Shown here: piece after piece, positions 2,017 to 59,146 of the stretch
How the letters are laid out: each line of letters starts with the position of its first letter
How positions within the stretch are numbered: the stretch's first letter is position 1
NCBI GenBank assembly: GCA_964016885.1
Contig: OZ024741.1
Location: forward strand, 364,250,001-364,314,000
Source: Eledone cirrhosa
Lineage: Eukaryota
Length of the DNA stretch: 64,000 nucleotides
Direction of reading: 5' to 3'
The notes under the pieces: model-generated
The model's input: the letters and a program-made list of their open reading frames with translations, nothing else
Database searches by the model: none
Told to the model about the DNA's origin: nothing
Position numbers and translations under genes: made by a program

Positions 2017-2096
<80 letters not shown>

Positions 2097-4208: not shown

Positions 4209-4220
4209 TAGTGCGAGTCT

Positions 4221-4365: not shown

Positions 4366-4474
4366 TAATAATGATTTCTTTATTGACCACAAAGGGTTAA
4401 CAAAAAGCACGTTAAGGACGGTACAATACGATACAGTGGGGTTTTGTGGGAAGATGTTCAGATTCCTCATATCA

Positions 4475-5185
4475 CACTACTATACCACTAACCATCATCA
4501 TCGTAATTATACCACCACCACCATCATCGTAATTATACCACCACCACCACCATCATCATCGCAATTATACTATTACTACTACCACTCCCACCATCATCAT
4601 CGTAATTATACTATTATTACTACCACCACCACCTCCACCATCATCATCGTAATTATGCTATTACTACTACTATCACTACCACCATCATCATCATTATCAC
4701 GATATCACATTCAGCATCATCACCATGAACCGCCATACGATTATACCACTATACAACCAGTACCACCACCATCACCATCATGATAATCATCATACTACTA
4801 CCACTATCACTAACATCACCACCACCACTATCATCATACTCATAGAACCACCACTATCGCTACTGTCACCGTCAGCATCATCATCATCATCACTGATCTT
4901 CAATATCACATCAAACGAACCACTACTATCACTACCATCGCTATCATACCACTATATCACTATCATCAGGATCATAACCATACTATTACCACCACCAGCA
5001 GCATCATCATGATCTTGATCATCCTTATCTACCATCACACAACCATACCACTATCGTTGTCATAATCGCGATACTACTACTATTACTGATACTACTGTCA
5101 GAATCATCATCATCGTCATCAATGTATTATTGCTGCCATCTTCATATTCACCATCATCATAACATTCGTCATCATCATCAACAAC
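4475..5185 (+). repeat. Degenerate (CAT/CAC/TAC)n tract
   Basis: Direct inspection. Confidence 0.9.
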
Positions 5186-5411
5186 ACTAGAAACACGCCT
5201 AAAAACAATAACAAAAGACATTACTCGAGTACATTGTTTCACATATTTGTCGAATGTAATGCATATATATACTGTGCTTATATATAAATGTATATATTTA
5301 AAATATTTAACTCTACTTCGTGTATTGGGTTCTTATTTTTCATTTACTGTTGGGTGCTTTTATATATAATTAAAAACATCTGCATCTATTTATCTCCATA
5401 TATATATATAT

Positions 5412-5497
<86 letters not shown>

Positions 5498-5682
5498 TAC
5501 CTTTTGTTTTAGTGCCTCGTCTGTCCATGCCATTCAACAACCACCATTATGTATATATACATAAGGTTCATTCATCCTTAAAACCAACAACACTTAGATA
5601 ATTCTCATATTTAAATTACACTTTAACAGTATTTATAGATCATTAGTCCTTGAAATATATAATTATATAATATAATAATAAT

Positions 5683-5762
<80 letters not shown>

Positions 5763-5974
5763 CTCTCCACCGCAATACTGTAAAATGTTACACATTTCAA
5801 CATCATGCATTTCAATCCGTAGAGTTAATTTGTCTTGTATGAGAAGACCAATCGAAGATGCTAATGTAATAACATGCATACAGGTAGACACACATATGTA
5901 TCTATGTATGTATATATGTATGTATATATGTATGTATGTATGAATGTATGTATGAATGTAGGTAAACATGTATG

Positions 5975-6008
<34 letters not shown>

Positions 6009-6203
6009 TGTATGTATGTAGCAATGGAACTGTCTCAATGACCATGTCGCAGTCAGTGCGACGAAAATTTTGACACTAAGAAACAAATGATAAATGTAAC
6101 GTGAATGATTGAATTCATCAGTTTCTCTATGTTTTTGAATGGCTAAAATCACTCTCACGGCGGTGTAAATGCGATATATATATATAATTGGTTATTCGCT
6201 ACC

Positions 6204-6267
<64 letters not shown>

Positions 6268-6342
6268 GATATCGAATAACCAATTTAGACTTATATATGT
6301 ATATATGTATATATATATATGATACAGTACGAAGGACCTTTT

Positions 6343-6702
6343 TGTTGTGGTTTAGTCCCATGTCAGCTCTGAAAGACCAGGTCTGTCAATAACGAAAGAT
6401 GATTCAGTTGTGACTATATTGTTCATTTTTGTACATCTACTGTATATCTGTAACTTCATTTATATGACGAAGCAAATAGGGAACCCTCTCTATACTTGGT
6501 TGTTTTCCTTGCTAGATAGATATGGCTGGCAAATCCCCCTCGAACCACACCTTACTGTTTTAATGAAGGAACGGACATATTAGAATATATTAGATAATGT
6601 TCGACATAACCCTAAAGATGGTGCGATGGATACGGCTAGAATGTTTTTGATTATCATAGGTGTCTTTGATCAGAGGATGATCTTCGGCTAAAATACCACA
6701 AC
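6343..6702. mobile_element. Unclassified MITE-like repeat with imperfect terminal inverted repeats
   Basis: GTTGTGGTTTAGTCC...GGCTAAAATACCACAAC termini; related pieces at ~8690, ~38650-39330 and ~43740-43930. Confidence 0.4.
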
Positions 6703-8854
6703 TATATTTATATTTATCTAATGTCTGCTTCCGTTATTCTGTTATGAAAGGAGGCTAGCTGCCTGTTAGCTGTTATTTCTAACAGGTCCAGCGTCCACTT
6801 AAGGAGGCTGAGACCCCCTCCTCCTCTCAGAGTGCAACCAACCGGCTTCATTTTACCTTATTGTTAGCTTTGGAAATCAGTTTAAAAAAATTAAATAACG
6901 AATCTAACACTTTAAAAAAATATCAAAGACATGTAATTACACACACATTCGTGTGTGTATGTATGTATGCATGTATGTATGTATAATGCTAAATAATTCC
7001 TCTTCTTTCCAATGACTATCCGATGTGTTAAGTATGTATATATTACGATGTCAAGCACCGTCGCCATAACGCACATCCGACATGGAATAATACAACTAAC
7101 TCTCTCTTAGCCGTCTGTGTTCTTCAGTTCTTTATATTATATTACATATATGTATAAATCTGTTGTCAAATAGGAAACATAGTTCTTTGTGCCCAGTCAC
7201 CTAAAAAAAAAAAATTCTCCTCTACTAAATAATAAATTCATTCTACTTATTTACTGTAAAACATTTTATCCTAAATTACTCCCATCCTTCCATCAGCCAC
7301 CTTAAATGTATTGATGTGTCCCACTAATTACATTGATAACCAGGCTTCTTTTTTTCTTTTTGTTTGAATCAGTTTTTATTACGGCTTCGAACCCCGTCAA
7401 TGTCTATCTATCGATATCACACACATACACACACATGTAAAATCATTATTATTATTTCTAATTTCTCCTTTAATGTATTGCTGACTCTGAAGAAATATTT
7501 TTGTTCTTTATATTTTGCATACATGTTTTATTATATATACATATATTATTTAATTTATAGTAATAAAAGACAGAATAGTAAAGTGTAATATATATGCGTG
7601 TGTATGTGCGTGCGCGTGCGTGTGTGCGGATAAGATGTGACTAATTATGACTAGTTAGACCATTATTTAACTTAGTACTCCGTACATTAAAGAAAACAGA
7701 TGTAGATATTAAATAATATGTATTAAATAATATCTATCTATTTCTCTATCTATCTATCACGATTTATCTTTCCCGTTATATATATGTAAGCGTACGTATA
7801 TGTGTGTATATGAATACGCATTTTCTATATGCATATGCACATATGCAGTTACTTTGAATGAACTAAAGGTTCAATTATCTTGTATAACTTGACTGTGCAC
7901 TTAATATTTGCATTGGTTGTTATCGGATGATGATTTTCACCGAATGTCTTAATTGTATGGCTGTGTCAGATATATGGTTATCGCGATGATTAAATATATC
8001 TTTCTGATAGTTGTTATACGTATATACAATATATGGTTGTTAACTGAAAAATGTCAACTGTATGTCTGATTTTATGGCTGTATATCTAGTGTATATTCAG
8101 TATATTTGTGGGCTTAGAAATATATCTATCTTTATATCTGTCTGTCTGTCTATCTATCTCTGCCTGTCTGCCTATCTATTTATCTATCTAAGAAATCTAT
8201 CTATCTACCTACCTACCTACCTACCTACCTATCTATCTATCTATCTATTTATCTGTCTTTTATGTTATTTATCTGTTATTTTATTATATCTAGTTTATTG
8301 TTATTTATTAACGTTAAAGTTATTTTTATGTAAAACCCCCGCCGCCACGTCTTGTAATGCCCCATTTTTGTACGCCCCTGTGGCAAATAAAGAAAGATAT
8401 CTATTTATCTATGTCTATCTGTCAACTTGCTTGTCTGTCTGTCAATCAGTCTGTCTGTTCACACATATCTATGTGTGAGACTATATGGTTGTGAACTGGA
8501 TGTTCACTATATGTCTGTTTGTATGGTTGTTATACCTATGTTCACTGTATGTCAGATTGTGTGGTTGTCTGGATGTTCATTATATGTGTATGATTGTGCT
8601 TTTATCTGTATGTACGCCGTATAATTGATCTCTAAATGGTCACTGATGAATGTCCCTTGTATGACATAACTGTTTTCTGGATGATAACCGTGTTGTTTAG
8701 CCACAGGTCAGTCAACCCTGATGGAGCAGACTTATGACGAAAAACCTTCCATCTTTATTTTTTAAGGTTTCGATATGAGAACTACATTATCTAATGTGTA
8801 CTTTTACTACCACCATCACAACGACGACAACCACCACCACCATCATCATTATTA

Positions 8855-9280
8855 GGATTGGCAGTATCAGTAGAACGTCGGAGAACATGCTTTGCGGCAT
8901 ATAATTACGTCCCTTTACGTTTTGAGTTCAAATCCCGCCGAGGTTAGCTTTGTCGTTCATCTTTACGGGATCGATAAAATAGAGCACCAGTAATGTACTG
9001 GAGTCGATTTATTCGACTTTCCCCTCGCTTAAAATTGTTAGCCTTGTGCCTAAATCAGAAACCATTATTATTTTTTATATTAGGGCGGTGAATTGGCAGT
9101 ATCGGTAGAGGGTTGGACGCCATGCTTTGACGCATAGAGTTACGGCCCTTGCCATTCTGAGTTCAAATCCCGCCGAGGTTAACTTTGCCTTTCATCCTTA
9201 TGGGGTCGATAAAATAAAGTACCAGTAATGTACTGGATAATTGCTGGCCTTGTGCCAAAAGTAGAAACAATTATTATTTT
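8855..9280 (+). mobile_element. Two tandem SINE family 1 copies (8855-9075, 9082-9280)
   Basis: A/B boxes, shared body and ATT tails. Confidence 0.85.
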
Positions 9281-9536
9281 TTATATTGAAGGTAGGATGT
9301 TACTTAAGAGATATCTGCCTGCTATTTCTAGCAGGTAGAATGACCACGGTGGTTTATTTAGTTCAAAAATAAATCGCTGGTTAATCTACTCAAGAGCATT
9401 CGGATACTCAATGTTTGTTGCTTGGGTGGTCGCTGATAAAAGAAATTCATTGCAAACATTGTTTTGCAACCATAGCAAAGGTTGAGACAAATGTATTTTT
9501 TTTTTTCAATATGATTTCGATATCTACACACACACA

Positions 9537-9568
<32 letters not shown>

Positions 9569-9960
9569 TGAGAGAGAGAGAGAGGGGAGAAAGAGAGAAA
9601 AGGATAAAAGAAAAATAACACGTAACGTCCATTTCATTGTCAAAGAGAATACTACCGGGTGCCTCAGCAATTTATGCTGAAGACAAACCAGACAATAGAT
9701 AAATCACACACACACACATATAGAACATACATACACATAAAATTAATTTCCGATTACAAATAATTCATCGTTTCTAGTTATTTATCCGCAGATAGCATCT
9801 ATAATGAAAGACATTCCAACCGAGACCATCTGGGCTTTTTTCCGCATAGTGTAGTCTAGGCTACATTTTCGAATTTATTCTTCCTTTTTCATTTCAAGTG
9901 TGATTTAAGGAAAGTTCCTATTGCTAAGACTCTAGTGTTCTTTTATGAATCTGATACAAA

Positions 9961-10178
9961 CCCTTTTGATACCAAACTGCCTGAAATCGCCTCTCGTCCT
10001 ATGATACAAAGCTATTTATTTTAAAGTGTTTATATTTATTTAAAATTTTCCATCATTTGTTCTTTGCCCAGCTTATGAGAAAGTTAGAAGTAAATCCCTC
10101 CAAATTCTTGATTATTTAAAATTTTTTTTTTGAAAACCATAGGTAGTGTCTTTCATTAGCAATATGGTAACGAAAGGG
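9961..10178 (+). mobile_element. piggyBac-type MITE family A
   Basis: CCCTTTTGATACCA...TGGTAACGAAAGGG|TTAA termini; other copies or pieces at ~26190, 36111, 50706, 60400 and 60824. Confidence 0.65.
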
Positions 10179-10971
10179 TTAAGCTATCAATCTCTCTTCT
10201 AACTGATATTCCGATGTCAAGTTCTCAAATTTACAACATGCTTTTTTACTTCTGATTCTTTTGCCGGTGGCATTTGTTTTTCTTCTTCTCTTTCTGAGTA
10301 AGTGAGAATAAAGATAGCAAGAAAGAAAGAATAAGGAACAGAGCAGCAGACTCTACCACGTTAGTCTGTCTATTCACAAGTGCACCTTTCTCTTCCCATT
10401 TATCTCCCCTCCTTTGCTCACATTGCTTGCTTTTCTCCGTCACATACAGTATTGTTGTTTTCTACTTTCAATTTCAACCCCCCTCTCTCTATATATACAT
10501 TCATTAAGATATATGCAAGCAGTCTTTCGGATATAACTGCTCATATTTATCACCGTTGCCGTCTGTTTGCCAGTAGAATTTATTAAATACTCTTTAGTAT
10601 TTAGTTGTTTGCCATTCTGCCTCAAAAGAGTTATGTCGGCTCTTTCGTATTCTCTCTTTTTAGTTGCCTATTTATCATCATCTTTGTATGTAATCTCTCT
10701 CTCTCTCTCTATATATACATACACACACACACACAGATACTACAAGGGTAAATATCGAAGTAAAAGGAAGAGTTACCAAATACATTTTGAGCTCAGATTC
10801 AAACACACATTTAATCATTAATTTTTGAGTCAACGTTCAGATTGTAATATATGAATACATCAGTATTTATATTAATAAAGGAGCTTGAGTTTTTACTTCT
10901 TTTCTATTTTATTTTGTCCATTTTGTGTCGGGGAAAATAAAATAGCTTAATTTTCATCTCTGCTTTTTTAC

Positions 10972-11008
<37 letters not shown>

Positions 11009-11143
11009 CAACGTGAAATCAAGTGTCTTACTCAAGAACACAACACACAGCCCAGTCTGGGAATCGAACTCACAACCTAACGATTGTAAGCCCGACATTC
11101 TAATGACTATATATATATATATGTGTATATATATATATATGTG

Positions 11144-11222
<79 letters not shown>

Positions 11223-11477
11223 ATATATATACGCACAGACATATAGGCATTGGCTTTTTACTAGACAGCCCCTTCCATCTTTGAAAGAGTGGTGAGTCAG
11301 TGGCTAAACTCCTTAAAATTAAAATGTGACAGACACAGATAAAACCATAACACACATACACACACTGTATAATAAATATATCGTTTGCTTTGGAAACCGA
11401 ACTTTTTGATAGATAACAAACATGTTATATTTCTCCGTGTAGATTTAGTTAAATCAGTGACGATTAGATAAATTGTT

Positions 11478-12010
11478 ATTGCCTCGTTTAAGATAGATCT
11501 TAATATATGTATGATTGTGTATGTGTTGTATGGTAATAATATTACAACAGATTTGTCGTAGACAAAATAACAAAATTTGCGTAGTTTAGGATAGATCTTA
11601 ATGTATATATGATTACAAATGTATGCAACTGTACTGTAGTGCATGTTATTCTAAGGCAGGCTGGTAACAATAACAATATTTGCCTCGTTTAAGATACATC
11701 CTAATGTATATACGATTGTGTGTGTCGTGTATGTTGTATTAAGACAGGCTGGTAATAATGTTACATCAGGTTAGTAGCTTAAAACAACAAAATTGACCCC
11801 GTTTAAGACAGATCTTAATGTATGTATGATTGTATAGACAGAATGGTAATAATGTTAAAACAGATTTAATAGTACAAATAATAAAATTTACCTCGTTTAA
11901 GATAGATCTTAATGTATGAATGATTGTAATTGTGTAAGTGTACTTGTACTGTATGTAGTACGAAGTAAAACAGGCTGGTTGTGTTACAACATATTAGTAG
12001 TACACAAAAT
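11478..12010. repeat. Tandem array of about five ~100-bp units
   Basis: Recurrent TTGCCTCGTTTAAGATAGATCTTAATGTAT...GGCTGGTAATAATGTTAC at ~11480, 11577, 11680, 11793 and 11888. Confidence 0.8.
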
Positions 12011-13309
12011 AACTTCTTTTTCTCTCTCTTTATTTCCCGATTGAGGAATAGCTTCTTAAACGTGACAACTAGAATTTTTCAAAGAAAATTCCTAACGTTC
12101 AGTATTTTTTTTTTTTTTTGTATTTTGTTTTCACTACTCTAATAATACTACATCCAATAAAGCAAGCGAAGATCAATTGCACAAACTACTGCCTTCCAAA
12201 CATCTTATAGCTTGGCACACGCATCCTGGATAAATCTGGGATATAACTAATTATCATACTGATATCCCAACAAGAGTACACACACACACATATATAATAT
12301 ATACTCGTCTGTCCGTTTTAGTTTTGGAGGAATATATCTTGTATTATAAGAATAATTTCCTCGTTAACCTACATTCTCTTCGTTTATTTTTTGTGGTAAG
12401 CTATGCTAGGCTTATCATTCAGCCTGATAGGTTTTCATACATTATCTTTTATAGAAATGGTCCTATTTAACGAACAGTTTTATCGATAAATGTTAGATAG
12501 AGATCTGATCTGATTATTATTTTTTCCACACTCCTCCTTGCAAATAATAGCTCTCTCTATTCATTCTGTTTCTGTGCTGTCTTGTTCAAACAAGCCAAAC
12601 TAGTTAAATATGAAAGTAGCATCTATCTGTGACGGGCGAAATTTATTCGTTCGAGAAGTACACATATGGGCATATGGTTTAACATACTATAAGAATAATG
12701 TTAATAATCATGTTAATAATAATATTAATGTTTCTTTTTTATCGACCCCGTAAAATAAAGCACCAGTAAAGCACTGACGTAATTGCTGGCCTTGTACCAA
12801 AAAGTAGAAACATTATTATTATTATTAATAAATAATAGTTTCATTTATTGGCCACAAGGACCGACATATAGGGGACAATACAATTGACGAGGACAATGGG
12901 GATAATAATAATACTATTATTTTTGCCATTTCCTTAACCCTAACTAATTATAATTATCAATATTATTGCTTATTATTGCTCTGAAGAGGGGGGGGGGGGG
13001 GCTCAAACCAACAACAGTCACTTTTATATCATATATTTCTGTGTCGGCATTTGAGGCTATTTTTTTTTTTACTTTTTCCTAATCGTCGACCTTGAATTGA
13101 TTTGATTTATACTATTTTGGATCTGATATATACATATAATCAAAAATTTATTTTATATAGAAATTACTCCTACAGGACTAGAACTGGTTAATTTGTTTGA
13201 AATCATGTTTTCGAATGAATAAAACGGTTCTAGTCCTGTATAAAATAAATTTGCATCTTCTTTCGCAATGTATTGAGTAGCCTATTTAACTGTGCTTCTC
13301 TTCCATTCC

Positions 13310-14930
13310 CTCTTCCGAAAACCATTCTTAATTATGGGACCATCAGATAAGATACTTGCTATTGCGAAGATGATGATTGAGGAACTTGGTCATATGGGCC
13401 TCCATATCAACAGTTCTAAATGTGAAATCTGTATCTTCAACCAGCTGGTTTCACAACACCAACAAAGAGTAGACCTGTTTACTGAATTTTCCCCTCCATC
13501 GTGGTCCCTTCCTCATCAGCATGGTACTTCCTAGGAGCCCCAGTTACTCACCTAGCGTTCAAGCCCACCCTTTCCTATAAGATTGCAAAACTCGAGCAAT
13601 TACTCAAAAACATTGATGCATTTGAGTACCATCAATTTTGTTTTTATACTTTTATATTTCCTAGCTATTCCTAAGTTATTGTATGGCCAGGACCAGTCTC
13701 TCATGTAGATTCTTGTCAGCTCTGCAGCGTTTTGATAAGCTAATCTTCAGTAAATTTGAATGCTTAGTCAATATCAAGCCCTTTAGACTCCTATGACCAG
13801 GCTGTATTACTTAAATGATTTAGGTGCCTAGGTCTATGTAAATGCTTGTCTTTGTGTCTTCCTTGCTTTCTTTCTTCCATCTCTGCTTGCTCTCCTCTAG
13901 TGGGTAACATCCTCTTCTTTCCCACAAGGACTAGCTCCAAGTGAGAGATGGACGAAGCTCTACTACAGCAGAGGGAGCTGGGTTGTCAGATCCTGATACA
14001 GAGGAGGATAGATTGAAACAGAACCTGGGATAACTTACATTTGAGAGACACTTTAAACTTTCTCTTTAATCAATCTTAGTTCTCAAGGTGCTGCCTGCTT
14101 TCTGCAAGTGTAGAATTCTTAGGGAATTAGGTTGATGCTTTACCCATGGCCAACATCAGTAGCCTACTCAGTCTGGATGATCTCTGCATCTCCATTACGC
14201 TCATAGTTGAAGCTGATGTCTGTGGGGTATTTAAATGTTATGGCAAACCAATTGACTCCACAGGCTTTCATGGGTTGTCTTTCTGCCTGAATATAGTTCT
14301 TTTTACTTGTCATACTGGCTGAAACTAATTATCAAGTGAGCCTTGGCTAGAGTCAGTATCCTTTCAATTCTGGAACAAGCTGGATTGTCCAGGGTTAATA
14401 GGAAGAGGCCAGGTGGTCTTACCATTTGGCCCTGGGTATGAGGGAGATGTCTCATTTGCAATGTCACAGTTAGTGACTCTTTTGCTCCCTCCCACATCAT
14501 AGATGATGTGATAAGTTGAGGGTCACTGAATCCATTCCTGAAGGGAATAAAATGCAAAAAAAACAGGAATTATTGGCAAACTATTTTTTCAGCTGAGGGT
14601 GATGGGTCACTGACACCTAATTTATTGTATTTTGTTGGTTTGCCTTTCCAAAATATTAGGTAATGCTCAGTTATTCCAGAATATTAATTAGCTTTGCTAT
14701 CACTTGTAGCAATGCAGTGGATGTGTTGACTTTCCTAAAAAAATTATCAGGGGGAAACTCCAGCCGTCCTGGGTGAGGGGTTGTGTGTGTGTGGATCTAC
14801 TCCAGACTCCTGGGTGGGGTGTTGTGTGTGTGGGTCTAATCCAGCCTTCTCTTTATTCTTTCATGAACTGAGTGCATTTTCGATTAACTTCCAACTTTAT
14901 GTTGAAAATGAATAATATCAACTGGGAGTT
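13310..14930 (+). mobile_element. Decayed CRE-clade non-LTR retrotransposon (RT C-terminus, Zn finger, restriction-like endonuclease)
   Basis: GLHINSSKCE; CYGKPIDSTGFHGLS; GLSRVNRKRPGGLTIWPWV*GRCLICNVTVSDSFAPSH matches the CRE pattern RxDGKRPDGxTxxPWxxGRxLxWDxTxxD; many stops and frameshifts. Confidence 0.7.
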
Positions 14931-15183
14931 ATAGATATATATATACTCTATATATGTCAAAGTTGATCTAAAATCACTGAATCTCACAGGAGATGACTGG
15001 AGGGATGTTGTGCTGGAAAGAACCCATACAAATGGTTGTACTAATTGTGTGTTGGTAGCTAATTAAGATATTTAAGAGGTGCGCTAAGCAGCTGAACTGT
15101 ATGTCCGTTTCAGAATACTACTAAGAGCGAATGGGTATATCAGCTCATCAAATACGTGTTTCCTGTGGTTGTTTAGATGATAT

Positions 15184-15233
15184 ACATGCCTCTGATGAGG
15201 ATCCAAATAGGCCTGAAAATCGGTTAAAGGTGT
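15184..15233 (+). ncRNA. Degenerate minimal type I hammerhead ribozyme motif (Penelope pLTR-like)
   Basis: ATGCCT-CTGATGA-GGATCCAAATAGGCCT-GAAA-ATCGGT-TA-A-AGGTGT; near-palindromic stem III AA(T)CGGTT; stem II weakened. Confidence 0.5.
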
Positions 15234-15536
15234 TTATCATTTTTTTCAATTTACAGGGTAATTTGTATTTTCTGGCATGTTTACACTTATAATGCTAGCT
15301 AGTTATTTTACTGATAGATAACAGATGGCCCTAGAATATGTTCTTCTTTCTAGGACTGGTACTGTAAATCCCATCGTCAGGAAAATTTATCTATTGTCTT
15401 CTCTGCGAGGTCACAAGTCACTTACTTGGTGGGCATGTTTGTAAGGCAAAATAAAGCACTGTAGGAAAACATTTCTTTTGCTACACACACACATATGTAT
15501 GTAAACATATACATGTATGTATACACACACACACAC

Positions 15537-15782
15537 ATCATCATCATCATCGTTTAACGTCCATCTTCCACGCTTGCATGGGTTTGGACGGGAGTTTTCC
15601 CACTTGAGGCAAGATTGGTTGTCCTGCTCATATAGGACTGTCTGGTGGGTTTTCTACGACTGGATGCCCTTCCTAACACCAACCACGTTTACAGTGTGGA
15701 CTGGGAGGTTTTTACCGTGTTACCTACATGGCCACATTACAGCGTGGACTGTGTGTTTTTTTGTTGTGACACCTACACGTCA
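15537..15782 (-). mobile_element. RTE 3'-UTR fragment, same subfamily as the intact element
   Basis: Reverse complement of 55660-55910 including the (TGA)n tail. Confidence 0.85.
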
Positions 15783-16460
15783 TATATATATATATGTATA
15801 TAGCAAAGTTGGATACTAACAAAAAAAAATTATGTGAGGCAAATGTACAGAAGCATTAAAACTTCCTCTTCAGCCACCCTTGGGAAATACAATTTTCTGC
15901 ATAAGAATGTTGCATAATGGTATTGCAAAATATTGAGGCCAGTTTGCATGACAGCTTAGAAAAAGCTACAGGTAAGATGCATATGAGACAACACAAAAAC
16001 AGAGACAGGGGTGAAGAAGTGAGTTTTGTTAGACTAGGGCAGAATATGTGCAGACAATTTGTGCAAATGGTAACACCAGAAGGAAGGAAATATAAATAGA
16101 CTTTCATAAAAAAAAGGTGAGAAAGTGTGTGAATGTGTGTGTGTGTGAGAGAGAGAGTTTCCCTTTTCTAAGTATATTTATATATATACATTTATATATA
16201 TATAAAGGTAGAACACTGGAAGGTAATATCCATAGTTGTAGAGCACTCAGTCCATGGGATGAGTTTGGTAGAAGTAGTAACACAACAGTTAGTTCACCAT
16301 ACCGAGAACAATTGTTTCACCTTGCGGATCTTCAGTTCAGACTGATCGCAAAGTGAAACAATTGTTCTCAGTATGGTGAACTAAATGTTGTGTTACTACT
16401 TCTATATATATTATAAAATAACAGGAGGCTGGACTCGTGCAATTCCTTAAAAGGTTCATT

Positions 16461-16534
16461 ATACTATCATCATTTCAATGATTGGGTTCAGTATGAATCC
16501 GGTGACATCATCAGGTATTCAAAGTGTGTGTGTT

Positions 16535-16605
<71 letters not shown>

Positions 16606-17082
16606 CAAGAATAAATGAAACAAACACAGGGATGCAAAAACAAAGTCTTATTAAGTTCATGTTTGGGAATGAAGACAAAAAAATAGAAAAAAGAAATAGA
16701 TAAATGACTCAATGTATCGGACATAAGTCTTTTATCAGGAAAGAGCAACGTTTGGAGAGAGGATGTTGGAAAACAGAATCATATATATATTTAAGTATAT
16801 ATATTTATGTGTGTATATATATATTGTACGTGTTTCAGTGAATTACTGGCGGCGGTAATGCATGTGATATATACATATAGATATTAATATATACATATAG
16901 ATATTAATTTAACAATGAAAATAATAACAAAGTCAAGTTATTTTACCTATTCATATCATTGTTTTACGATCGTTTTGGAGGGTTGATCATATTGACGTAG
17001 TGACTGATCTATAGCAGTTATATAACTGTATACTATCAGACTACATATATAGGTTTGATCAGACTGTCTTCTTTGGAAACAA
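16461..17082 (-). ncRNA. Cluster of three decayed hammerhead-like motifs (16461-16518, 16708-16741, 16959-17082)
   Basis: ATAC-CTGATGA...GAAA-TGATGA-TA-GTAT; TTC-CTGATAA-A-AGAC-TTAT-GTCC-GATA-CA-TT-GAG; TTGTTT-CCAAAGA...CTCC-AAAA-CGATCG-TA-AAACAA. Confidence 0.45.
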
Positions 17083-17331
17083 TAGAGTAGACCACATTGA
17101 AATATATATATATACACACACACACATATATATAGATATATACAATATATACACACACATAATTAATGGATATTTTTTCAGAAAATGAAGTTATTACTCT
17201 GTTCATACGAACTGAGTCTTTCAGTTGATGTATGAATATTTTAAGTACAATGGTATTTAAAACAGCCACTTCAATGTGTGTGTGTATAGGTGTGTGTGTG
17301 TTAAAATATTTCCGTACATGCATATGTATAT

Positions 17332-17677
17332 GCATGGCTTAGTGGTTAGAGCATTGGCCTTGCAATCAGAAGGTTGTGAATTCAATTCTCAGACCGGGTG
17401 ATGTGTTGTTTCCTTGCGCAAGACACTTTATTTCACATTGCTCCAGTTTACTCAGCTGTAGAAATGAGATGATAGGGACTGGGGTCCCTATCATTCCACT
17501 GCAAAGTGGTCGTGGAGGTGCCACGGCAAAAAAGCACCCAGCACTCACTGTAAATGAGGTTGGTGTTAGGAAGGGCATCCAGCTGTAGAAATCAAGCCAG
17601 AATCGGTTCCCGTCCCACCCTTGCAAGCAGGGAAAAGTGGACGTAAAAATGAAATGATGATGAAATGATGATGATGT
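17332..17677 (+). mobile_element. tRNA-derived SINE family 2 with RTE-derived 3' part
   Basis: TGGCTTAGTGGTT head, CCTTGCGCAAGACACTT body, then RTE 3'-UTR modules and GGACGTAAAA(TGA)n tail. Confidence 0.8.
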
Positions 17678-18016
17678 ATAAGTGTGTGTATGTTACAAAA
17701 AATAGCAGTATATAGTTCATATTTGATTGATTGCTATCTAGAACTATTGTATTTCATGAAATATAGGAAGGAAGGTAGCTGGTTCATTAATTCAAAGTAA
17801 ACAATAGTGGCAATCATACATTGTAGTAATTAACTGATATTGAAATTGTAACTAAAATTGTTATGTAATGAGCTTGCTTTCTACATCAGAATAAAATATG
17901 GGATTTTCTGGTGCCACAATAAAATTCAACTAGTACACACTGCAAAAGGGTAAAGCTGTTCCTACAATATCTTCCAATCACACACACAATATATATATAT
18001 ATATATATATATTATT

Positions 18017-20047: not shown

Positions 20048-20084
<37 letters not shown>

Positions 20085-20089
<5 letters not shown>

Positions 20090-21216
20090 AAGTATGGGTG
20101 CATAAAAGATGTAGTGGGATCACAGGTAAGCTAACTAAGAATATAGATTTTATATGTGGCCGGTGCTCAGGTGCAATAAGTAGTAGCAAGTGCCCACAGG
20201 ATATTAGCTCATTCCATTGCCCAGATGGTTCTATAGAAATAGTGGACACCTTCCGTTACCTGGGTGATAAAATCAGCAGTGGTGGAGGGTGCTCTGAAAG
20301 TACAGTAGCTAGAGTCAGAATGGGATGGAAAAAGTTCAGAGAGCTTATACCACTATTGGCCGCTAAAGGTTTCTCTCTAAAAATGAAAGGCAGGCTGTAT
20401 GATGCCTTCATACGAACAGCAATGTTACATAGCAGTGAGACATGGGCATTGTGTGCAAAGGATCTACGCAGACTGGAGAGGAACGAAGCTTGCATGCTCC
20501 GTTGGATGTGTAATAGTAATATACATGAACGGCAAAGCATAAATAAGAGAGAAATTAGGAATAAGAGGGATCAGATGCTGTTTACTCGAGAGAAGACTAC
20601 GTTGGTATGGTCACATGATGCTCATGAAAGACGACAGCTGTATAAAAAAGTGCAGGGCGATAAAAATAGACGATAGCTACGGAGTAGGCAGACCCAGAAA
20701 AACCTGGGACGACTTGATAAATTCCAACCTTGCTCACTTACACCTCTCCAAGACAATGTCACTGGACCGAGATCTTTTTGGCGCTACGCAGTAATATAGA
20801 AGACCCGCCTTGCCTAAGTACAAAGCGAAACCTACGATCAGTAGGCACCTCTTAACCAAAATACACCCCCGTCCCACTAACCCTACCCTCACCCCCATCT
20901 ACACCACTCCTTTCGATGTAAAGTTATGTTGGTACCACAACATCCAGTCCTAAATAAATGAGGTAGTGTAGCTGTCACGACAAAAAAAAACACACAGTCC
21001 ACGCTGTAATGTGACCGTGTAGGTAACACGGTAAAAACCTCCCAGTCCACACTAAACGTGGTTGGTATTAGGAAGGGCATCCAGCCGTAGAAAACCTGCC
21101 AGACAGTCCTACACAAGCAAGACAACCAATCTTGCCTCAAGTGGGACAATTCCCGTCTAAACCCATGCTAGCGTGGAAGATAGATGTTAAACGATGATGA
21201 TGATGATGGTGATGAT
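20085..21216 (+). mobile_element. 5'-truncated RTE copy, same subfamily as the intact element
   Basis: CKVWVHKRCSGITGKLTKNID...FRYLGDKISSGGG near-identical to 54810-55910; frameshift near 20545; (TGA)n tail. Confidence 0.93.
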
Positions 21217-21229
21217 ATATATATACATA

Positions 21230-51400: not shown

Positions 51401-51809
51401 CATATATATGTGTGTATGTCTGTGTGTGTTTGTGTGTGTGTCCATGCCTTTGTTTATGTTTACTGTTTGTTTATATCCTGTAACTTTGAGGTTCAACAAA
51501 AAGAGATTGATAAAATAAGCACCATACTTTAAAAAATAACTGGACTGATATGATTAACTAAATCCCTTTGAGGTGATGATCTAGCATGGCTGTTGTATAA
51601 CAACTGAAACCAGTAAAAGAATATCATCATCATCATTGTAAATGTGAATGCCGTTAGGAAGGGCATCCAGCCAAAGAAACCTAGCCAGAAACAGTTCTAT
51701 ATGAGCAAGACACGGTCACCTGACCCAACTTACCTATAATGGGATAACCCATCTAACCTATGCTAGTGTGGAAAATTGACGTTGAACAATGATGATCATC
51801 ATCATTAAT

Positions 51810-54800
51810 ATTGTTTTATTCACTTTCGCCAATCCATTGCTGCTTCAATTATTCCTACTACGGTGTACCTATGTAATCGTAACGTACAAAATTTTTCTCT
51901 ATCTACTCCACGCTCAATTTCGTACATAGTCCAAACATCTAATCTCGCAAAATCCGAAATCTGTATTTTTTGTTATTTATTTAAGGTTTAAATACGGTGT
52001 TTTTGTCGTATTGAACAGAACAAATCTTGCAGTTTTGCTTTTTGTTAAATCGCTTGTTAAACATTCATAACCTTCCAGCTAGCTACCCCATACCCCTCCC
52101 ACCCGCCCCCACACACCACCATTCTTAATACGTGGACCAATCATAAGCCAGAGCCCCCCCCCCACGCATCACCATTATTATTATAAGCCAGACCCCCCCC
52201 CCACGCATCACCATTATTATTACGCGGACCAATCATAAGCCAGAGGCCTATACTATCGCTTGCCCGGTGCCTTCGATATATGATGGATGGATGGATGGAC
52301 GGACGGACTGCGGAATCCTGGAGAGTGGAAGGGAGCGAAAATGCCAAAGTTAAAGTCAAATTCACCTCGTGGACGAGAATGCGAGCACTCCTCTTTGTTT
52401 CGTGGACGAGAATGCGAGCACTCCTCTTTGTTTCGTCCGCGGATGGCTAACATAACCCTATCTCCCCCCGCCCCCCACCACCCCCACCCTCCAAACGCAA
52501 CCCCAAACTTCAGAGTTGGTACCATTAATGTAGGCACCCTAAAGGGTCGCGCTAACGAGGTTGTAGAAATGCTTGAACGTAAGGAGGTCGATGTTTGTTG
52601 TATTCAAGAGACCAGGTGGAGGGGTGGGTCTGCTAGATTCATTGAGGGTAAAAAACGATGTTATAAGCTTTTCTGGGTGGGAAACGACGATGGGCTGGGT
52701 GGAGTAGGAATCATGGTAGCAGAAAAGTGGGCAGATAAGATAATAGACGTAAAAAGAGTGAACGACAGAATAATTAAAATACGACTTGTCCTCAATAGAA
52801 CTACGGTGACAGTAATATCTGCGTACGCACCCCAATCCGGACTGCCCGGCACTATAAAAGACAGATTCTATGAGACACTGTTGCTAACTACCTCCCAAAT
52901 ATCTGACAGTGACTATATAATTATTGCTGGCGACCTAAATGGTCACGTTGGACAACATTGTGACGGCTACGACGAAATCCATGGAGGCTATGGGTTTGGT
53001 ACTAGAAATGAGGAAGGCTCCAGAATCCTGGAATTCTGTGATGCAAATAACCTAACTATCTGTAACACTAACTTCAAAAAACGTGACAATCACCTGATCA
53101 CCTATAGATCTGGGGAACACACAAGCCAGGTAGATTATATCCTTACCAGAAGACGTGACAGAGTGTCTGTTGTAAACACTAAATCCCTCCCCCATGAAGA
53201 ATGCACCTCCCAACATAGACTGATAATTAGCGACCTCATAGTCAGGACGAGACGTACTCGACAGCAGAAGAGGACTATCCTCAGGAGGAAAATATGGAAG
53301 CTAAAGGACCCCACAGCCAGAAATAAATTTCAAAGCATATTACTTGATGCTTTCGACAGTAAGGAAGAGCATCTAGAATCGGACAATATAGAGGGACAGT
53401 GGGATTTTCTGAAAGCAAACCTGCTGTTGGCGACAGACGAAGTCTGTGGCTGGAGCAGGCCTGTAGGCAGGAGGAGAGTAACATGGTGGTGGAACAGTAA
53501 GGTGGAGGGGTCAATTAAGGCCAAAAAGCAGGCTTGGAAAGTATGGCGGGATGGGGCAAGTAGAGTAGACTATCAAGTGGCCAGGAGGGAAGCTAGGAGA
53601 GAAGTGTACTTAGCAAGAAGGGAAGCTGAGGAAAGAAAGTTCAAGCATGTTCTACAACGCGATGACCAAAAACGTGAGGTGTTCAGGATTGCTAGGCAAT
53701 GCGTCAAGGAAAACCGTGATATTGTCGGGGAGAAGTGTGTACTTAACGATGATGGCATACTTGCCATCACCGACACTGATAAGAAGGTAGCTTGGAAGTG
53801 TCACTATGAAAGGCTACTAAATGAGGAGAATAAATGGGAGAAAGACAGTCTCCCCCATATCGACCCAATAGAGGGACCAGCAGTGTTAGTCGAGGGGAGT
53901 ATAATAAGTAAGGCAATCAAGGATATGAAGACGGGTAAGGCGGCTGGGCCTTCGGAAATAGTTGCTGAGATGCTGAAGGCATCTGGCACGGTGGGACACA
54001 CCATGGTCACCCGCATAGTTAACCAAGTCGTACAGAATGGGGTTGTTCCGAAGGACTGGCATAGCAGCATCATCGTTAACTGTTATAAGGGTAAAGGAGA
54101 CGCCCTAGATAGGAGTAACTATAGAGGCATTAAATTAATCGACCAGGTCATGAAGGTCACGGAAAAAGTAATAGCGCAACTAATCAGAGAGAGAATTGAC
54201 CTAGATGAAATGCAGTTCGGGTTTGTGTCAGGCAAAAGCACCACAGACGCTCTTTTCATAGTACGACAACTACTGGAGAAGTACCTAGCTAAAGGTAAAC
54301 CCCTCTACTTAGCTTTTGTCGACCTGGAGAAAGCCTTCGACAGAGTCCCCCGCTCCATTATCTGGTGGGCTCTTAGAAAACTAGGCATTGACGAATGGCT
54401 TGTGAGGGCTATACAAGCCATGTATAAAGAAACAGTCAGCAAGGTTAGAATTAACAACGAATATAGTGAAGAGTTTAGCGTAAAAGTTGGCGTCCATCAG
54501 GGCTCTGTTCTCAGCCCCCTACTATTTATTATTGCCCTTCAGGCTATAACAGAGGAGTTCAAGACAGGCTGCCCATGGGAACTCCTATACGCAGACGACC
54601 TGACACTCATAGCGGAATCAATGGCCGAGCTAGAGAAGAAATTCCAAACATGGAAGCACGGCCTAGAGTCAAAAGGACTTAAAATTAACCTGGCTAAGAC
54701 CAAAGTTCTAGTTTGTAGGAAAGAAAACAAGGCGGCGGTCCCTTCTGGGAAATGGTCGTGCTCGGTGTGTAGGAAAGGCGTAGGTAGAAACTCCATTTTA

Positions 54801-55910
54801 TGTCCTAAATGCAAAGTATGGGTGCATAAAAGATGTAGTGGGATCACAGGTAAGCTAACTAAGAACATAGATTTTACATGTGGCCGGTGTTCTGGTGCAA
54901 TAAGTAGCAGCAAGTGCCCACAAAATACTAGCTCTTTCAATTGCGCAGAGGGTTCTATAGAAATAGTGGACAGCTTCCGTTACCTGGGCGATAAAATCAG
55001 CAGTGGGGGAGGGTGCTCTGAAAGTACTGTAGCTAGAGTCAGAACTGGTTGGAAAAAGTTCAGAGAGCTTATACCACTATTAGCTGCTAAAGGGTTCTCC
55101 CTAAAAATGAAAGGCAGGTTGTACGATGCCTGCATACGAACAGCAATGTTGCATGGCAGTGAGACCTGGGCATTGTGTGCAGAGGATATACGCAGACTAG
55201 AGAGGAACGAAGCTTGCATGCTCCGCTGGATGTGTAACAGTAATATACGTGAACGGCAAAGCATAAACGAACTAAGGAAAAAATTAGAGATAAGAGGGAT
55301 CAGATGTTGTTTACTCGAGAGAAGGCTACGTTGGTATGGACACGTGATGCGCATGAAAGTCGATAGCTGTATAACAAAGTGCAGGGCAATAAAGATAGAC
55401 GGTAGCCACGGAATAGGCAGACCTAGAAAAACCTGGGATGAGCTGATAAACTCCGACCTCACACACTTACACCTCTCCAAGACAATGTCACTGGACCGAG
55501 ACCTTTGGCGGTACTCAGTAACAGAGAAGACCCGCCTTGCCAGTAGGCATCTCTAACAAAATACACCCCGTCCCGCCACCACCCCCACCCCATCCACACC
55601 ACCCGCTCTATGTAAAGTTATGTTGGTGCCGCGCCATCCAGGCCGAAACAAATGAGATCGTGTAGGTGTCACGACAAAAAAACACACAGTCCACGCTGTA
55701 ATGTGGCCGTGTAGGCAACACGGTAAAAACCTCCCAGACCCACACTGTAAATGTGGTTGGTGTTAGGAAGGGCATCCAACTGTAGAAAACCTACCAGACA
55801 GTCCTATGCGAGCAAGACAATCACTCTTGCCTCAAGTGGGACTACCCCCGTCCAAACCCATGCAAGCGTGGAACACGGACGTTAAACGTTGATGATGATG
55901 ATGATGATGA
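51810..55910 (+). mobile_element. Apparently full-length RTE-clade LINE
   Basis: Uninterrupted ORF, CpG-retaining 5' region (5' boundary uncertain, no TSD found), ~350-bp 3' UTR, GGACGTTAAACGT(TGA)n tail. Confidence 0.9.
52443..55556 (+). CDS. RTE ORF: AP endonuclease + reverse transcriptase with inserted PHD finger (frame open from 52287)
   Basis: APE motifs GTINVGTL, IQETRW, AYAPQ, GDLNGHVG, VDYIL, SQHRL; RT motifs NYRGIKL, QFGF, FVDLEKAFDRV, GVHQGSVLSPLLF, LLYADD, FRYLG; RRLRWYGHV; GRPRKTW. Confidence 0.95.
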   Translation: MANITLSPPAPHHPHPPNATPNFRVGTINVGTLKGRANEVVEMLERKEVDVCCIQETRWRGGSARFIEGKKRCYKLFWVGNDDGLGGVGIMVAEKWADKIIDVKRVNDRIIKIRLVLNRTTVTVISAYAPQSGLPGTIKDRFYETLLLTTSQISDSDYIIIAGDLNGHVGQHCDGYDEIHGGYGFGTRNEEGSRILEFCDANNLTICNTNFKKRDNHLITYRSGEHTSQVDYILTRRRDRVSVVNTKSLPHEECTSQHRLIISDLIVRTRRTRQQKRTILRRKIWKLKDPTARNKFQSILLDAFDSKEEHLESDNIEGQWDFLKANLLLATDEVCGWSRPVGRRRVTWWWNSKVEGSIKAKKQAWKVWRDGASRVDYQVARREARREVYLARREAEERKFKHVLQRDDQKREVFRIARQCVKENRDIVGEKCVLNDDGILAITDTDKKVAWKCHYERLLNEENKWEKDSLPHIDPIEGPAVLVEGSIISKAIKDMKTGKAAGPSEIVAEMLKASGTVGHTMVTRIVNQVVQNGVVPKDWHSSIIVNCYKGKGDALDRSNYRGIKLIDQVMKVTEKVIAQLIRERIDLDEMQFGFVSGKSTTDALFIVRQLLEKYLAKGKPLYLAFVDLEKAFDRVPRSIIWWALRKLGIDEWLVRAIQAMYKETVSKVRINNEYSEEFSVKVGVHQGSVLSPLLFIIALQAITEEFKTGCPWELLYADDLTLIAESMAELEKKFQTWKHGLESKGLKINLAKTKVLVCRKENKAAVPSGKWSCSVCRKGVGRNSILCPKCKVWVHKRCSGITGKLTKNIDFTCGRCSGAISSSKCPQNTSSFNCAEGSIEIVDSFRYLGDKISSGGGCSESTVARVRTGWKKFRELIPLLAAKGFSLKMKGRLYDACIRTAMLHGSETWALCAEDIRRLERNEACMLRWMCNSNIRERQSINELRKKLEIRGIRCCLLERRLRWYGHVMRMKVDSCITKCRAIKIDGSHGIGRPRKTWDELINSDLTHLHLSKTMSLDRDLWRYSVTEKTRLASRHL

Positions 55911-56265
55911 TATGTTTATCTCGGGTTCAATTGGGGGTTACCACAGTCAACAAAACAATTACTAGACTTGAAAAAAAAGTACTTTGATCATTATATTCAA
56001 CTTTAAGGAAGTGCCCCAGTATAGTCACAGTTAAATGACTGAAACGAACAAAATGAAAAACGAACAAAGTAACGGTAATTTATTAGCAAATATAGCTTGT
56101 GCATAATCATGACATTCGCTTTTGCAATTCTGTCTGCTGGAACAATGAGCCAACATCCACTTCAGGTTTTGCACTTTAGTAAGACAAAACATGAATGAAA
56201 GACTGTGATAACCTTTCATTGGTTGATTTATGATGTTACCATTAATATATAAACGGAAAAAAATT

Positions 56266-57138: not shown

Positions 57139-57172
57139 AAGTATGAGAAATAAAATAGATTGCAAAACTCAT

Positions 57173-58079
57173 ATCATCATCATCATCATCATCATCATTT
57201 TACGTCCGCTTTTCCCTGCTTGCAAGGGTGGGACGGGTCTTATTCAGCACAGCATCTCTCCACTCGTCACGGTCCCTCGTCATCTCCACCGTGAGCTTCA
57301 ATGATCTGAGGTCTGTTCTCACCACCTCCGCCCATGTTTTTCGTGGTCTACCTCTATCACGTCTTCCTTCAACTGGCATTTCCTGGCACTTCTTCACCCA
57401 TCGGTCATCCTCCATGCGCATCACATGTCCATACCACCTCAGTCTCCTCTCCCGTACACTACATTCTATCCCTCTCAGACACAGTTTCTCTCTCAACACA
57501 TTTATGCTGGGTCGTTCACGCACATTTACACTGCACATCCAACGGAGCATGCTTGCCTCATTTCTCTCCAGCCGTCGCATATCCTCTGCGGTTGCTGCCC
57601 ATGTCTCACTACCATGCAGCATCGCGCTCCTCACACAGGCATCATACAACTGGCCTTTCGTACGCAGGGAGAAACCCTTCTTCGTCAACAGAGGAAGCAG
57701 CTCCCTAAACTTCTTCCAACCCGTCCTTATTCTAGATACTATGGCCTCGGAACACCCTCCTCCCATGCTAATCTGATCTCCTAGGTACCGGAAGCTATCC
57801 ACCACTTCTATAGCGCCCTCTCGCATTTGAAAAATGTGTCTATCAGTGCGACTTCTACTGTCTAATTTCCCTGTACATCTACTGCATACATATTTCTCCC
57901 TACCTGTTAGTTTGCCTGCTATCCCGCTACATCTCTTGTGTACCCAGGACCTGCATTGTGTGCATTTTATAGAATTTATGCTAGTTCCTTTTCTGCATAT
58001 CGAACATGGCCATTTCCCTGACGGAATCAGGGTTTTGTCCTCTTTTCTACTCATCAACACTTTTGTCTTAGCTAGATTT
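57173..58079 (-). mobile_element. 5'-truncated RTE, subfamily B (uninterrupted 286-aa C-terminal ORF 57200-58060)
   Basis: PHD WPCSIC...WVHKRC, FRYLG, RRLRWYGHV; stop codon directly before the (TGA)n tail. Confidence 0.93.
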
Positions 58080-58341: not shown

Positions 58342-58914
58342 ATCATCATCATCATCATCATCATCACCATTTTACGTCCGTTCTTCCACGCTAGCATGGA
58401 TTAGATGGGCTGTCCTGTTGTGGGCAGTGTCTGGTCGGCTGACCATGCCTTGCTCATACAGGAACTGATTTGGCTTGATTTCTACAGCTGGATGCCTTTC
58501 CTAACACCAACCTCATTTACAGTGAGTGCTGGGTGCTTTTTCGTGGCACCTACACGTCCACTTTACAGTGTGGGCTCGGTGCTTTTTTGCCGTGGCACCT
58601 CCACGACCACCTTGCAGTGAGGGGTGTGGGGGCATATTGTCTATATGCTTCAGCTTGTAACCATGGGAGGTCGGGTACTCTGTATTACTGCGTGACGCCA
58701 GAGGTCACGGTCGTGTGTCATCACCTTTGAGAGGTGTAATTGGGTAAGGTCGGCTTTTATCACCTCATCCCAGGTCATCTTGGGTCTCCCCACTCCGCGG
58801 TTTCCATCGACTTCTCGTGCTCTGCACCTTTTTATGCAGCTGTCATCCTTCATACGCATCACATGTCCATACTAACGCAACTGCCTCTCCTGCACACAGC
58901 ATTTGATTCCTCTT
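58342..58914 (-). mobile_element. 5'-truncated RTE, subfamily C
   Basis: MRMKDDSCIKRC...GRPKMTWDE, modular 3' UTR and TGA tail. Confidence 0.88.
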
Positions 58915-59146
58915 ATATATATATATAATATATATATATATATAATATATCTAATATATATGTAATATAAATAATATATTAAATAATCAACGCTATTTTC
59001 TTTTCAGATTCTATTTTGCTTCTTTACTTCTCACTTGACTTTGTGTTCTTAGTTTTCTATTTCAAAACCACACCTTTTGTAATTTCAATCTATCTACATT
59101 TTCAAAGACATATCCTTCTACCTGTATCAGAAGTGTATATATATAG

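What the first reader, a model, noticed from the sequence alone, without database searches (positions are those of the whole stretch)
52402..55656. RTE 3' UTR is complementary to its own start-codon region: candidate 5'-3' panhandle switch
Seen: 52424-52456 CTC-TTTGTTTCGTCC-GC-GGATGG-CTAACATAAC (ATG 52443 inside) can pair with 55617-55656 GTTATGTTGG-(TGCCGCG)-CCATCC-A-GGCCGAAACAAA-T-GAG: about 30 bp in blocks of 10, 6, 12 (one mismatch) and 3, over 3.1 kb. The same 5' strand can instead form a local hairpin (GTGGACGA 52402 / TCGTCCGC 52440) and lies in a 33-bp tandem duplication. The older copy keeps GTTATGTTGGT at ~20923. Inference: RNA cyclisation that hides the AUG, toggling translation versus reverse transcription as in some RNA viruses. 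It might explain why non-autonomous RTEs keep both ends. I do not know of this being described for LINEs.
Basis: partly seen in the sequence, partly recalled or inferred. Interest (0 to 1): 0.78.

Follow-up and report, generated by a model that had tools for sequence, protein, structure and literature searches.

The report
LINE with paired RNA ends
A young RTE-type jumping gene has a stretch near the start of its protein gene that is complementary to a stretch of its tail 3.1 kb away, and older subfamilies keep this match despite changed letters, so the RNA likely folds into a loop, as known for yeast Ty1 and flaviviruses, but its function is untested and the likely start codon lies outside the match.

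Summary
The complementarity is real: about 30 predicted pairs between 52424-52456 and 55617-55656. Alone it is unremarkable: 4th of 23,871 window pairs in the element. The support comes from relatives. A ladder of subfamilies, about 13% apart at its ends, keeps both arms. The oldest sampled copy keeps 24 of 25 pairs against about 19 under random change (p 0.0005-0.007; 0.01-0.10 under the strictest null), with two compensatory pairs. Against: the 5' arm shows no deficit of pair-breaking changes (8 of 21 versus 27 of 63 private), an abundant young subfamily breaks several pairs, the antisense strand pairs as well, and two sister RTE families lack the arms. The AUG-hiding switch is not supported as stated: ATG 52443 is ACG in one subfamily, and an upstream in-frame ATG (52341) is the likely start. 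The 33-bp duplication is private to this copy. No internally deleted copies keeping both arms were found (0 of 30). Verdict: likely a weakly selected, lineage-specific end-to-end pairing; function untested; not found described for LINEs in my searches.

The parts
51815..55912 (+). Full-length young RTE-type non-LTR retrotransposon (family A, subfamily A0)
   Evidence: Other genomic copies align from 51815 to about 55912 at 95-99%; single ORF with endonuclease, RT and PHD-type finger
51815..52340 (+). 5' UTR with short internal repeats; this copy has a private deletion of about 22 nt near 52335 that joins ATG 52287 to the ORF
52341..52343 (+). Likely start codon (inferred)
   Evidence: Intact in 103 of 107 copies; spacing to ATG 52443 in classes of 66-84 nt, multiple of 3 in 100 of 107
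52341..55556 (+). Single ORF, 1071 aa in this copy: endonuclease aa 61-296, RT aa 591-791, PHD-type finger aa 807-850
   Evidence: Pfam PF03372, PF14529, PF00078, PF00628
52367..52432 (+). Exact 33-bp tandem duplication, in frame, private to this copy
   Evidence: absent from 107 other copies
52402..52441 (+). Predicted local hairpin that competes with the long-range duplex
   Evidence: chosen over the long-range duplex in the minimum-energy fold of a whole 4079-nt A0 copy
52424..52456 (+). 5' arm, inside the coding sequence (about codons 17-28 of a copy without the duplication)
52443..52445 (+). Second in-frame ATG, inside the arm; ACG in subfamily A2
   Evidence: intact in 82 of 107 copies
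52457..52495 (+). C-rich tract just inside the 5' arm, length-variable; a similar tract lies just inside the 3' arm (55565-55604)
55617..55656 (+). 3' arm in the 3' UTR, with a 7-nt bulge at about 55627-55633; a diverged paralogue of the unit at 55743-55790
55657..55800 (+). Strongly conserved tandem units of the 3' UTR; the last resembles a motif that family B carries in its 5' UTR
   Evidence: 0.05 and 0.16 shared changes per site
55890..55912 (+). Trinucleotide microsatellite tail
20082..21218 (+). 5'-truncated older copy (subfamily A5 type); 3' arm at 20923-20962
   Evidence: 86% to the focal copy; arm type matches A5 copies

Best explanation
The element's RNA likely closes into a loop by pairing a 33-nt stretch of its early coding sequence with a 40-nt stretch of its 3' UTR, and weak selection likely keeps this pairing in one RTE lineage. 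Shown: the complementarity, its persistence across the subfamily ladder, and the arm's place downstream of a conserved in-frame ATG. Inferred: the 5' arm began as an inverted copy of the first 3'-UTR unit; ribosomes would open the duplex while translating, so it would form only on RNA that has left translation, competing with the local hairpin; the closed form would hold the 5' end near the 3' UTR where reverse transcription starts, and would raise the share of full-length insertions. It is a helper, not a requirement.
For: Oldest sampled same-copy arms (L144) keep 24 of 25 alignable pairs; random change of the 5' arm by the same number of letters gives 18.9 +/- 1.4 from A0 (p 0.0005) and 20.0 from A4b (p 0.005); codon-class null p 0.0005-0.007. 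Two compensatory pairs: 52430:55649 is A-T in D and A5 and G-C later; 52437:55642 is A-T in D, a mismatch in A5 and A4a, C-G later. It is the only one of the 25 strongest intra-element duplexes with two double changes (controls 4 in 24; Poisson p 0.012). Shared 3'-arm changes break a pair in 1 of 11 events against 12 of 24 private changes (p 0.02) and gain one in 4 of 11 against 0 of 24. Indel variants of the 3' arm in D0, D1 and D2 still pair in shifted registers (for D0 same-copy only in L127 and L151). The 3' arm is the best partner of the 5' arm in the element (-37.2 against -27.5). Endonuclease-start to ORF-end motif counts: 2869 to 17,699 (16%) in the lineage with arms, 174 to 4089 (4%) in family C without.
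Against: 5'-arm shared changes break pairs as often as private ones (8 of 21 versus 27 of 63, p 0.45). A synonymous site (52436) lost its pair in A2, A1 and A0. Subfamily A2, 33 of the first 100 listed arm matches, keeps only 26-27 pairs. With changed positions fixed, p is only 0.01-0.10; energy-based p 0.05-0.10. The antisense strand pairs as well or better in 5 of 10 representatives, so there is no G-U signature of sense RNA. The 3' UTR just downstream is as conserved as the paired arm positions, so other constraints could explain them. One-sided gains on the path to A0 are inflated because the feature was picked in A0. The D-to-A energy ratio (0.63) is no better than in chance duplexes (0.40-0.99). 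D copies are not significant in an unbiased scan (8, 12 and 13 of 30 shuffles as strong). The whole-RNA fold prefers the local hairpin. The full-length ratio is one comparison of two families with unequal pattern sensitivity. All subfamilies descend from one origin.
Confidence: 0.45

Rival explanations
1. Relic: the 5' arm is an old inverted copy of the first 3'-UTR unit. The match survives because the 3' UTR is constrained for protein binding and the 5' arm is coding, perhaps with occasional copying between the arms by template switching; no pairing is selected.
For: The 3' arm is a paralogue of downstream conserved units; the oldest copies have only Watson-Crick pairs (24 of 25); no strand bias; side-branch changes in the 5' arm look neutral.
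Against: Random change from D towards the young arms keeps 18.3 pairs against 24 seen (p 0.0003); duplex energy rises from D (about -22 to -24) to A4 (about -42) instead of decaying; changes at 55645 and 55649 arose stepwise in at least one copy (L258).
Confidence: 0.2
2. Chance: a duplex of this strength occurs somewhere in any 4-kb element, and this one happens to join the ends.
For: Three stronger duplexes exist in the element; families B and C lack it; only two double changes.
Against: End-restricted shuffles 4 of 2000 and 0 of 500; retention in D is independent evidence.
Confidence: 0.15
3. The selected pairing is on the minus strand (first-strand cDNA folding back on itself at the end of reverse transcription), not on the RNA.
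For: Antisense duplex energies are more even across the A lineage (-37.6 to -42.0, A5 excluded) than sense (-32.8 to -42.9); the A2 breaks are A-C in sense, G-T in antisense (RNA parameters used for both).
Against: No RNase H domain was found, so the cDNA should stay bound to the RNA (inference); no excess of 5' truncations at the arm (3 of 77 in the bin -150 to -100).
Confidence: 0.1
4. One reading: pairing hides the initiating AUG and toggles translation against reverse transcription.
For: A competing hairpin is predicted in 11 of 11 A-lineage representatives; the A0 change at 52436 that breaks a long-range pair lengthens that hairpin.
Against: ATG 52443 is ACG in A2; the conserved upstream ATG lies about 50 nt before the arm in copies without the duplication; the hairpin is absent in 3 of 3 D representatives.
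Confidence: 0.1

Closest known systems
Ty1 CYC5/CYC3 cyclisation (yeast LTR retrotransposon; PMC7969010, passages read)
   Same: A 5' and a 3' sequence of a retroelement RNA pair over kilobases; the 5' partner has an alternative local pairing.
   Different: Ty1 is an LTR element and its pairing is tied to tRNA priming; here a non-LTR element with target-primed reverse transcription. Ty1 has genetic support; this has none.
Flavivirus genome cyclisation (search listing and abstract starts only; position of the 5' sequence in the capsid gene is recalled)
   Same: Complementary end sequences with competing local hairpins; 5' partner downstream of the start codon.
   Different: Invariant and essential in flaviviruses (recalled); here variable, lineage-limited, and the enzyme is an RT.
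R2 5' and 3' RNA elements (PMC12222951, passages read)
   Same: A non-LTR element for which a role of 5' RNA in integration has been proposed (R2Bm), besides the 3' UTR structure.
   Different: In the passages read the ends are recognised by protein, not paired to each other; R2Tg may not need the 5' UTR.
Two-ended (bipartite) non-autonomous RTEs and the conserved RTE 5'-UTR domain (PMC5786205, passages read)
   Same: RTE clade; a conserved UTR motif reused in tails; family B has such a motif in its 5' UTR and families A and C in their 3' UTRs.
   Different: No two-ended derivative found here; the paper removed complementary-strand hits, so it could not see this. Identity of the motif with its domain was not checked (figure and supplement not seen).
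RTE-2_OV of Octopus vulgaris (PMC9115989, passages read)
   Same: Single-ORF RTE of about 1100 aa with endonuclease, RT and finger; 5' UTR of about 600 nt.
   Different: Its 3' UTR is described as mostly microsatellite; sequence not compared, so sameness is untested.

Membership tests
RTE-clade non-LTR retrotransposon | Single ORF with APE-type endonuclease and RT, no ORF1 | tested here: met
RTE-clade non-LTR retrotransposon | Microsatellite tail, no LTRs, frequent 5' truncation | tested here: met
   versus 68
RTE-clade non-LTR retrotransposon | RT groups with reference RTEs in a tree | not tested
   No named reference RTE sequences were fetched; the clade name rests on architecture and recalled knowledge
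Functional 5'-3' cyclisation element (Ty1 CYC or flavivirus type) | Complementary sequences near both ends, beyond chance | tested here: met
   End-restricted tests; not exceptional element-wide
Functional 5'-3' cyclisation element (Ty1 CYC or flavivirus type) | Covariation across relatives | tested here: inconclusive
   Two double changes, p 0.0005-0.10 by null; no depletion of breaks in the 5' arm; no strand bias
Functional 5'-3' cyclisation element (Ty1 CYC or flavivirus type) | Present throughout the family | tested here: not met
   Absent from sister RTE families B and C
Functional 5'-3' cyclisation element (Ty1 CYC or flavivirus type) | Forms in the RNA and is needed, shown by disrupting and restoring mutants | not testable with these tools
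   Needs probing and retrotransposition assays
AUG-sequestering translational switch | The paired AUG is the initiator | tested here: not met
   (indirect: frame and conservation)
AUG-sequestering translational switch | Mutually exclusive local structure conserved | tested here: inconclusive
   Predicted in 11 of 11 A-lineage and 0 of 3 D representatives
Bipartite non-autonomous RTE | Amplified internally deleted copies keeping both ends | tested here: not met
   0 of 30 loci sampled in genome order from 2390 arm matches; rare ones are not excluded

The most novel reading that the evidence does not exclude
A LINE lineage invented RNA cyclisation: it copied a 3'-UTR unit in reverse into its N-terminal coding region, and the resulting duplex, opened by ribosomes and re-formed after translation, holds both RNA ends together during target-primed reverse transcription and gives about four times more full-length insertions than a sister family without it.
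Probability: 0.25. Interest if true: 0.75.

Novelty: new variant of a known kind. Interest (0 to 1): 0.47.

Why it matters
Most LINE insertions are cut short at the 5' end, and how the 5' end is held for integration is open. A base-paired link between the two RNA ends would be a simple, mutable handle on that question, known from Ty1 and flaviviruses but not found for non-LTR elements in my searches. The subfamily ladder supplies natural disrupted and restored pairs to test. If it only reflects an old inverted copy, it is a minor note on how LINE 5' ends are built.

Tried and rejected
Close copies were too alike for covariation. Metagenome relatives (37 loci) gave no locus with a long 5' region and a 3' UTR; those read (4 of 37) have short tails, and none was tested for pairing. 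A short candidate pairing in family C seen by eye was not significant. Rfam: 7 weak matches, all far below gathering scores. Sequencing runs: no RNA holder listed. Contigs of other organisms gave no linked arms; one contig each showed A2-type letters at 52436/52444 (X16, depth 3.9) and 55639 (X19); the high depth at 52463-52494 is the C-rich tract, not the arm. No pile-up of 5' truncations at the arm (82 copies). The cross-subfamily duplex matrix (p 0.02) is driven by D alone and its rows are not independent, so I give it little weight. The test combined arms of two copies (L144, L141); one search repeats it on one copy. Pairing of the 5' arm with the two downstream units is weak (-16.0, -17.1 against -37.4). 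Earlier findings: none. Paper searches with no relevant hit. PMC3308841 was not held. RT tree with named RTEs, protein homologue search and structure prediction were not run.
Full report
What the element is. The finding lies in a full-length non-LTR retrotransposon at 51815-55912 (+). Other copies in the 3.0-Gb host genome align over this span at 95-99%. It has one ORF with an APE-type endonuclease, an RT and a PHD-type finger and a microsatellite tail. That is RTE architecture (recalled; no tree was built). The host looks like an octopod cephalopod from its repeats (recalled resemblance, not tested). Exact motif counts give 2869 endonuclease starts and 17,699 ORF ends for this lineage.

The observation. 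The arms at 52424-52456 and 55617-55656 form the duplex described, -35.3 kcal/mol. With only the two end regions as search space it beats shuffles: 4 of 2000 by alignment score, 0 of 500 by energy, 0 of 30 in a sliding scan. With the whole element as search space it does not stand out: 4th of 23,871 window pairs. The 33-bp duplication is exact but private: the spacing it creates occurs in 0 of 107 copies. The minimum-energy fold of a whole 4079-nt copy uses the local hairpin instead. With the two regions joined by a 30-nt linker, which ignores the cost of a 3-kb loop, the long-range form wins by 2-17 kcal/mol in 14 of 14 representatives.

The start codon. An in-frame ATG at 52341 is intact in 103 of 107 copies in which both motifs were found (of 133 examined). 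Its distance to ATG 52443 falls in classes of 66, 69, 72, 75, 78, 81 and 84 nt, a multiple of 3 in 100 of 107. ATG 52443 is intact in 82 of 107; subfamily A2 has ACG. So the arm most likely lies in coding sequence, about 50 nt after the start codon. This is inferred from conservation, not measured.

The subfamily ladder. Copies sampled by similarity and in genome order gave 97 entries with both arms called, the window included; two were false calls (L216, L246). They form a ladder D, A5, A4, then A3, A2, A1 and A0. A0 and D differ by 13.5% overall and by about 0.47 changes per fourfold site summed along the path. All keep both arms. The window's older copy at 20082-21218 is of A5 type. Mean same-copy duplex energies run from -22 to -24 (D, decayed copies) through -30 (A5) and -42 to -43 (A4b, A4c) to -32 to -40 (A2, A3, A1, A0).

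Evidence that pairing is kept. Pair 52430:55649 is A-T in D and A5 (also in 7 of 7 further copies with both arms among 20 fetched) and G-C from A4 on. Pair 52437:55642 is A-T in D and in intermediates L354 and L360, a mismatch in A5 and A4a, then C-G. Two sites switch between Watson-Crick and G-U. A1 changed both arms and re-pairs in a shifted register (3 of 4 copies). In one D copy (L144; I placed two gaps by hand) 24 of 25 pairs hold. Randomising only the 5' changes gives 18.9 +/- 1.4 from A0 (p 0.0005) and 20.0 from A4b (p 0.005); keeping codon classes, p 0.0005-0.007; keeping positions and randomising letters, p 0.01-0.02 and 0.06-0.10. Among the 25 strongest duplexes of the element it alone has two double changes; the other 24 have 4 in all. 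Using 81 of the 97 entries, private changes in the 3' arm break a pair in 12 of 24 cases. Shared changes do so in 1 of 11 (14 listed; I merged three counted on two edges), and gain a pair in 4 of 11 against 0 of 24.

Evidence against. In the 5' arm shared changes break pairs in 8 of 21 cases against 27 of 63 private ones (p 0.45). A fourfold site at 52436 lost its pair in the three youngest subfamilies. A2 is abundant (33 of the first 100 listed of 2390 arm matches) yet keeps 26-27 pairs. The C-T mismatch at 52437:55642 lasted through two subfamilies. Antisense arms pair as well as sense arms, so the G-U signature expected of sense RNA is missing. The 140 nt after the 3' arm are as conserved as the paired positions (0.05-0.16 changes per site). 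One-sided gains towards A0 are biased because the feature was spotted in A0. D copies are not significant in the unbiased scan, and D's energy retention is ordinary among chance duplexes. Everything traces to one origin, so the number of independent events is small.

Other families. Family B (window 57160-58078, minus; 64% amino-acid identity) has a very short tail and carries the conserved UTR motif in its 5' UTR. Family C (58345-58916, minus; 70-79%) shares the downstream 3'-UTR units but lacks both arms. Neither shows a significant end-to-end duplex (1 B copy and 2 C copies tested). Both are young and active-looking, so the pairing is not needed by RTEs in general. The 3' arm aligns with the downstream unit at 55743-55790, which suggests that the 5' arm began as an inverted copy of the first unit; it pairs with that unit only (-37.4 against -16.0 and -17.1).

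Predictions tested. Two-ended deleted copies: 0 of 30. Truncation pile-up at the arm: none, 2-6 per 50-nt bin from 0 to -400 among 82 copies. Full-length share: 16% against 4% in family C. Pattern sensitivity on known copies was 18 of 20 and 14 of 34 (5', A0 and D), 18 of 19, 5 of 22 and 38 of 60 (3'), 5 of 7 and 19 of 22 (C); this does not remove a fourfold gap, but it is one comparison, open to age, expression and enzyme differences.

Mechanism. Most likely the RNA forms an end-to-end duplex when not being translated. Ribosomes starting at 52341 would open it, so a passive alternation with translation is possible without hiding the AUG. The closed form would place the 5' end beside the conserved 3'-UTR units and could help finish full-length copies. 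Formation and function are untested. I put maintained sense-RNA pairing at 0.45, relic with other constraints at 0.2, chance at 0.15, minus-strand pairing at 0.1 and the AUG-hiding switch at 0.1.

Relation to what is known. It would work like Ty1 CYC5/CYC3 (PMC7969010, passages) and flavivirus cyclisation (listings only). It does not pass as a member of that class: covariation is inconclusive, it is not family-wide, and no mutant data exist. PMC5786205 (passages) describes two-ended RTE derivatives and a conserved RTE 5'-UTR domain but removed complementary-strand hits; its figure and supplement, which I did not see, bear on whether the motif here is that domain. PMC9115989 and PMC13282606 (passages) describe octopus RTEs; the passages seen mention no such pairing. 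PMC12222951 (passages) covers R2. Seven searches of the open-access library found no report of end-to-end pairing in a non-LTR element; subscription papers were not searched.

Verdict. Real, lineage-specific and probably maintained, but with modest statistics and several results against. New variant of a known kind; interest 0.47.

Noticed in passing
window 57160-58078 (-); full copies L108, L109, L111: A second young RTE family (B), 99% identical among copies, with intact ORFs, a tail of only about 20 nt before the microsatellite, a long T run in the 5' UTR and the conserved UTR motif just before its start.
   Followed up: partly
window 58345-58916 (-); L172-L177: A third RTE family (C) whose 3' UTR, like family A's, ends in tandem units resembling family B's 5'-UTR motif: autonomous LINEs seem to have taken a two-ended or SINE-like tail.
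   Followed up: partly
L004, L027, L046, L033, L025, L044: Many full-length copies carry tandem repeats of their own 5' end (units of about 27 to 540 nt), suggesting repeated slips at the end of reverse transcription; the window's 33-bp duplication may be of this kind.
   Followed up: no
window 52457-52495 and 55565-55604: Similar C-rich tracts lie just inside both arms; G-rich on the minus strand, so possible quadruplex or poly(C)-binding-protein sites.
   Followed up: no
window 54759-54890: A PHD-type finger sits inside the C-terminal part of the RT region in families A and B.
   Followed up: no
window 52360-52372 and 55657-55670: In several subfamilies the joined fold extends the duplex with a second helix between the first codons and the conserved unit just after the 3' arm.
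   Followed up: partly
L040, L275, L221: Apparent recombinants between subfamilies: 5' arm of one type with the 3' arm of another.
   Followed up: no
G000:C1:39998198-40046644 and C1:7352399-7364719: Clusters of RTE 3' ends at regular spacing or head to head, probably tandem or inverted segmental repeats.
   Followed up: no
window 51634-51805 (+) and about twenty other places: Short copies of the shared 3'-UTR units are scattered through the window; the focal element inserted right after one of them.
   Followed up: no
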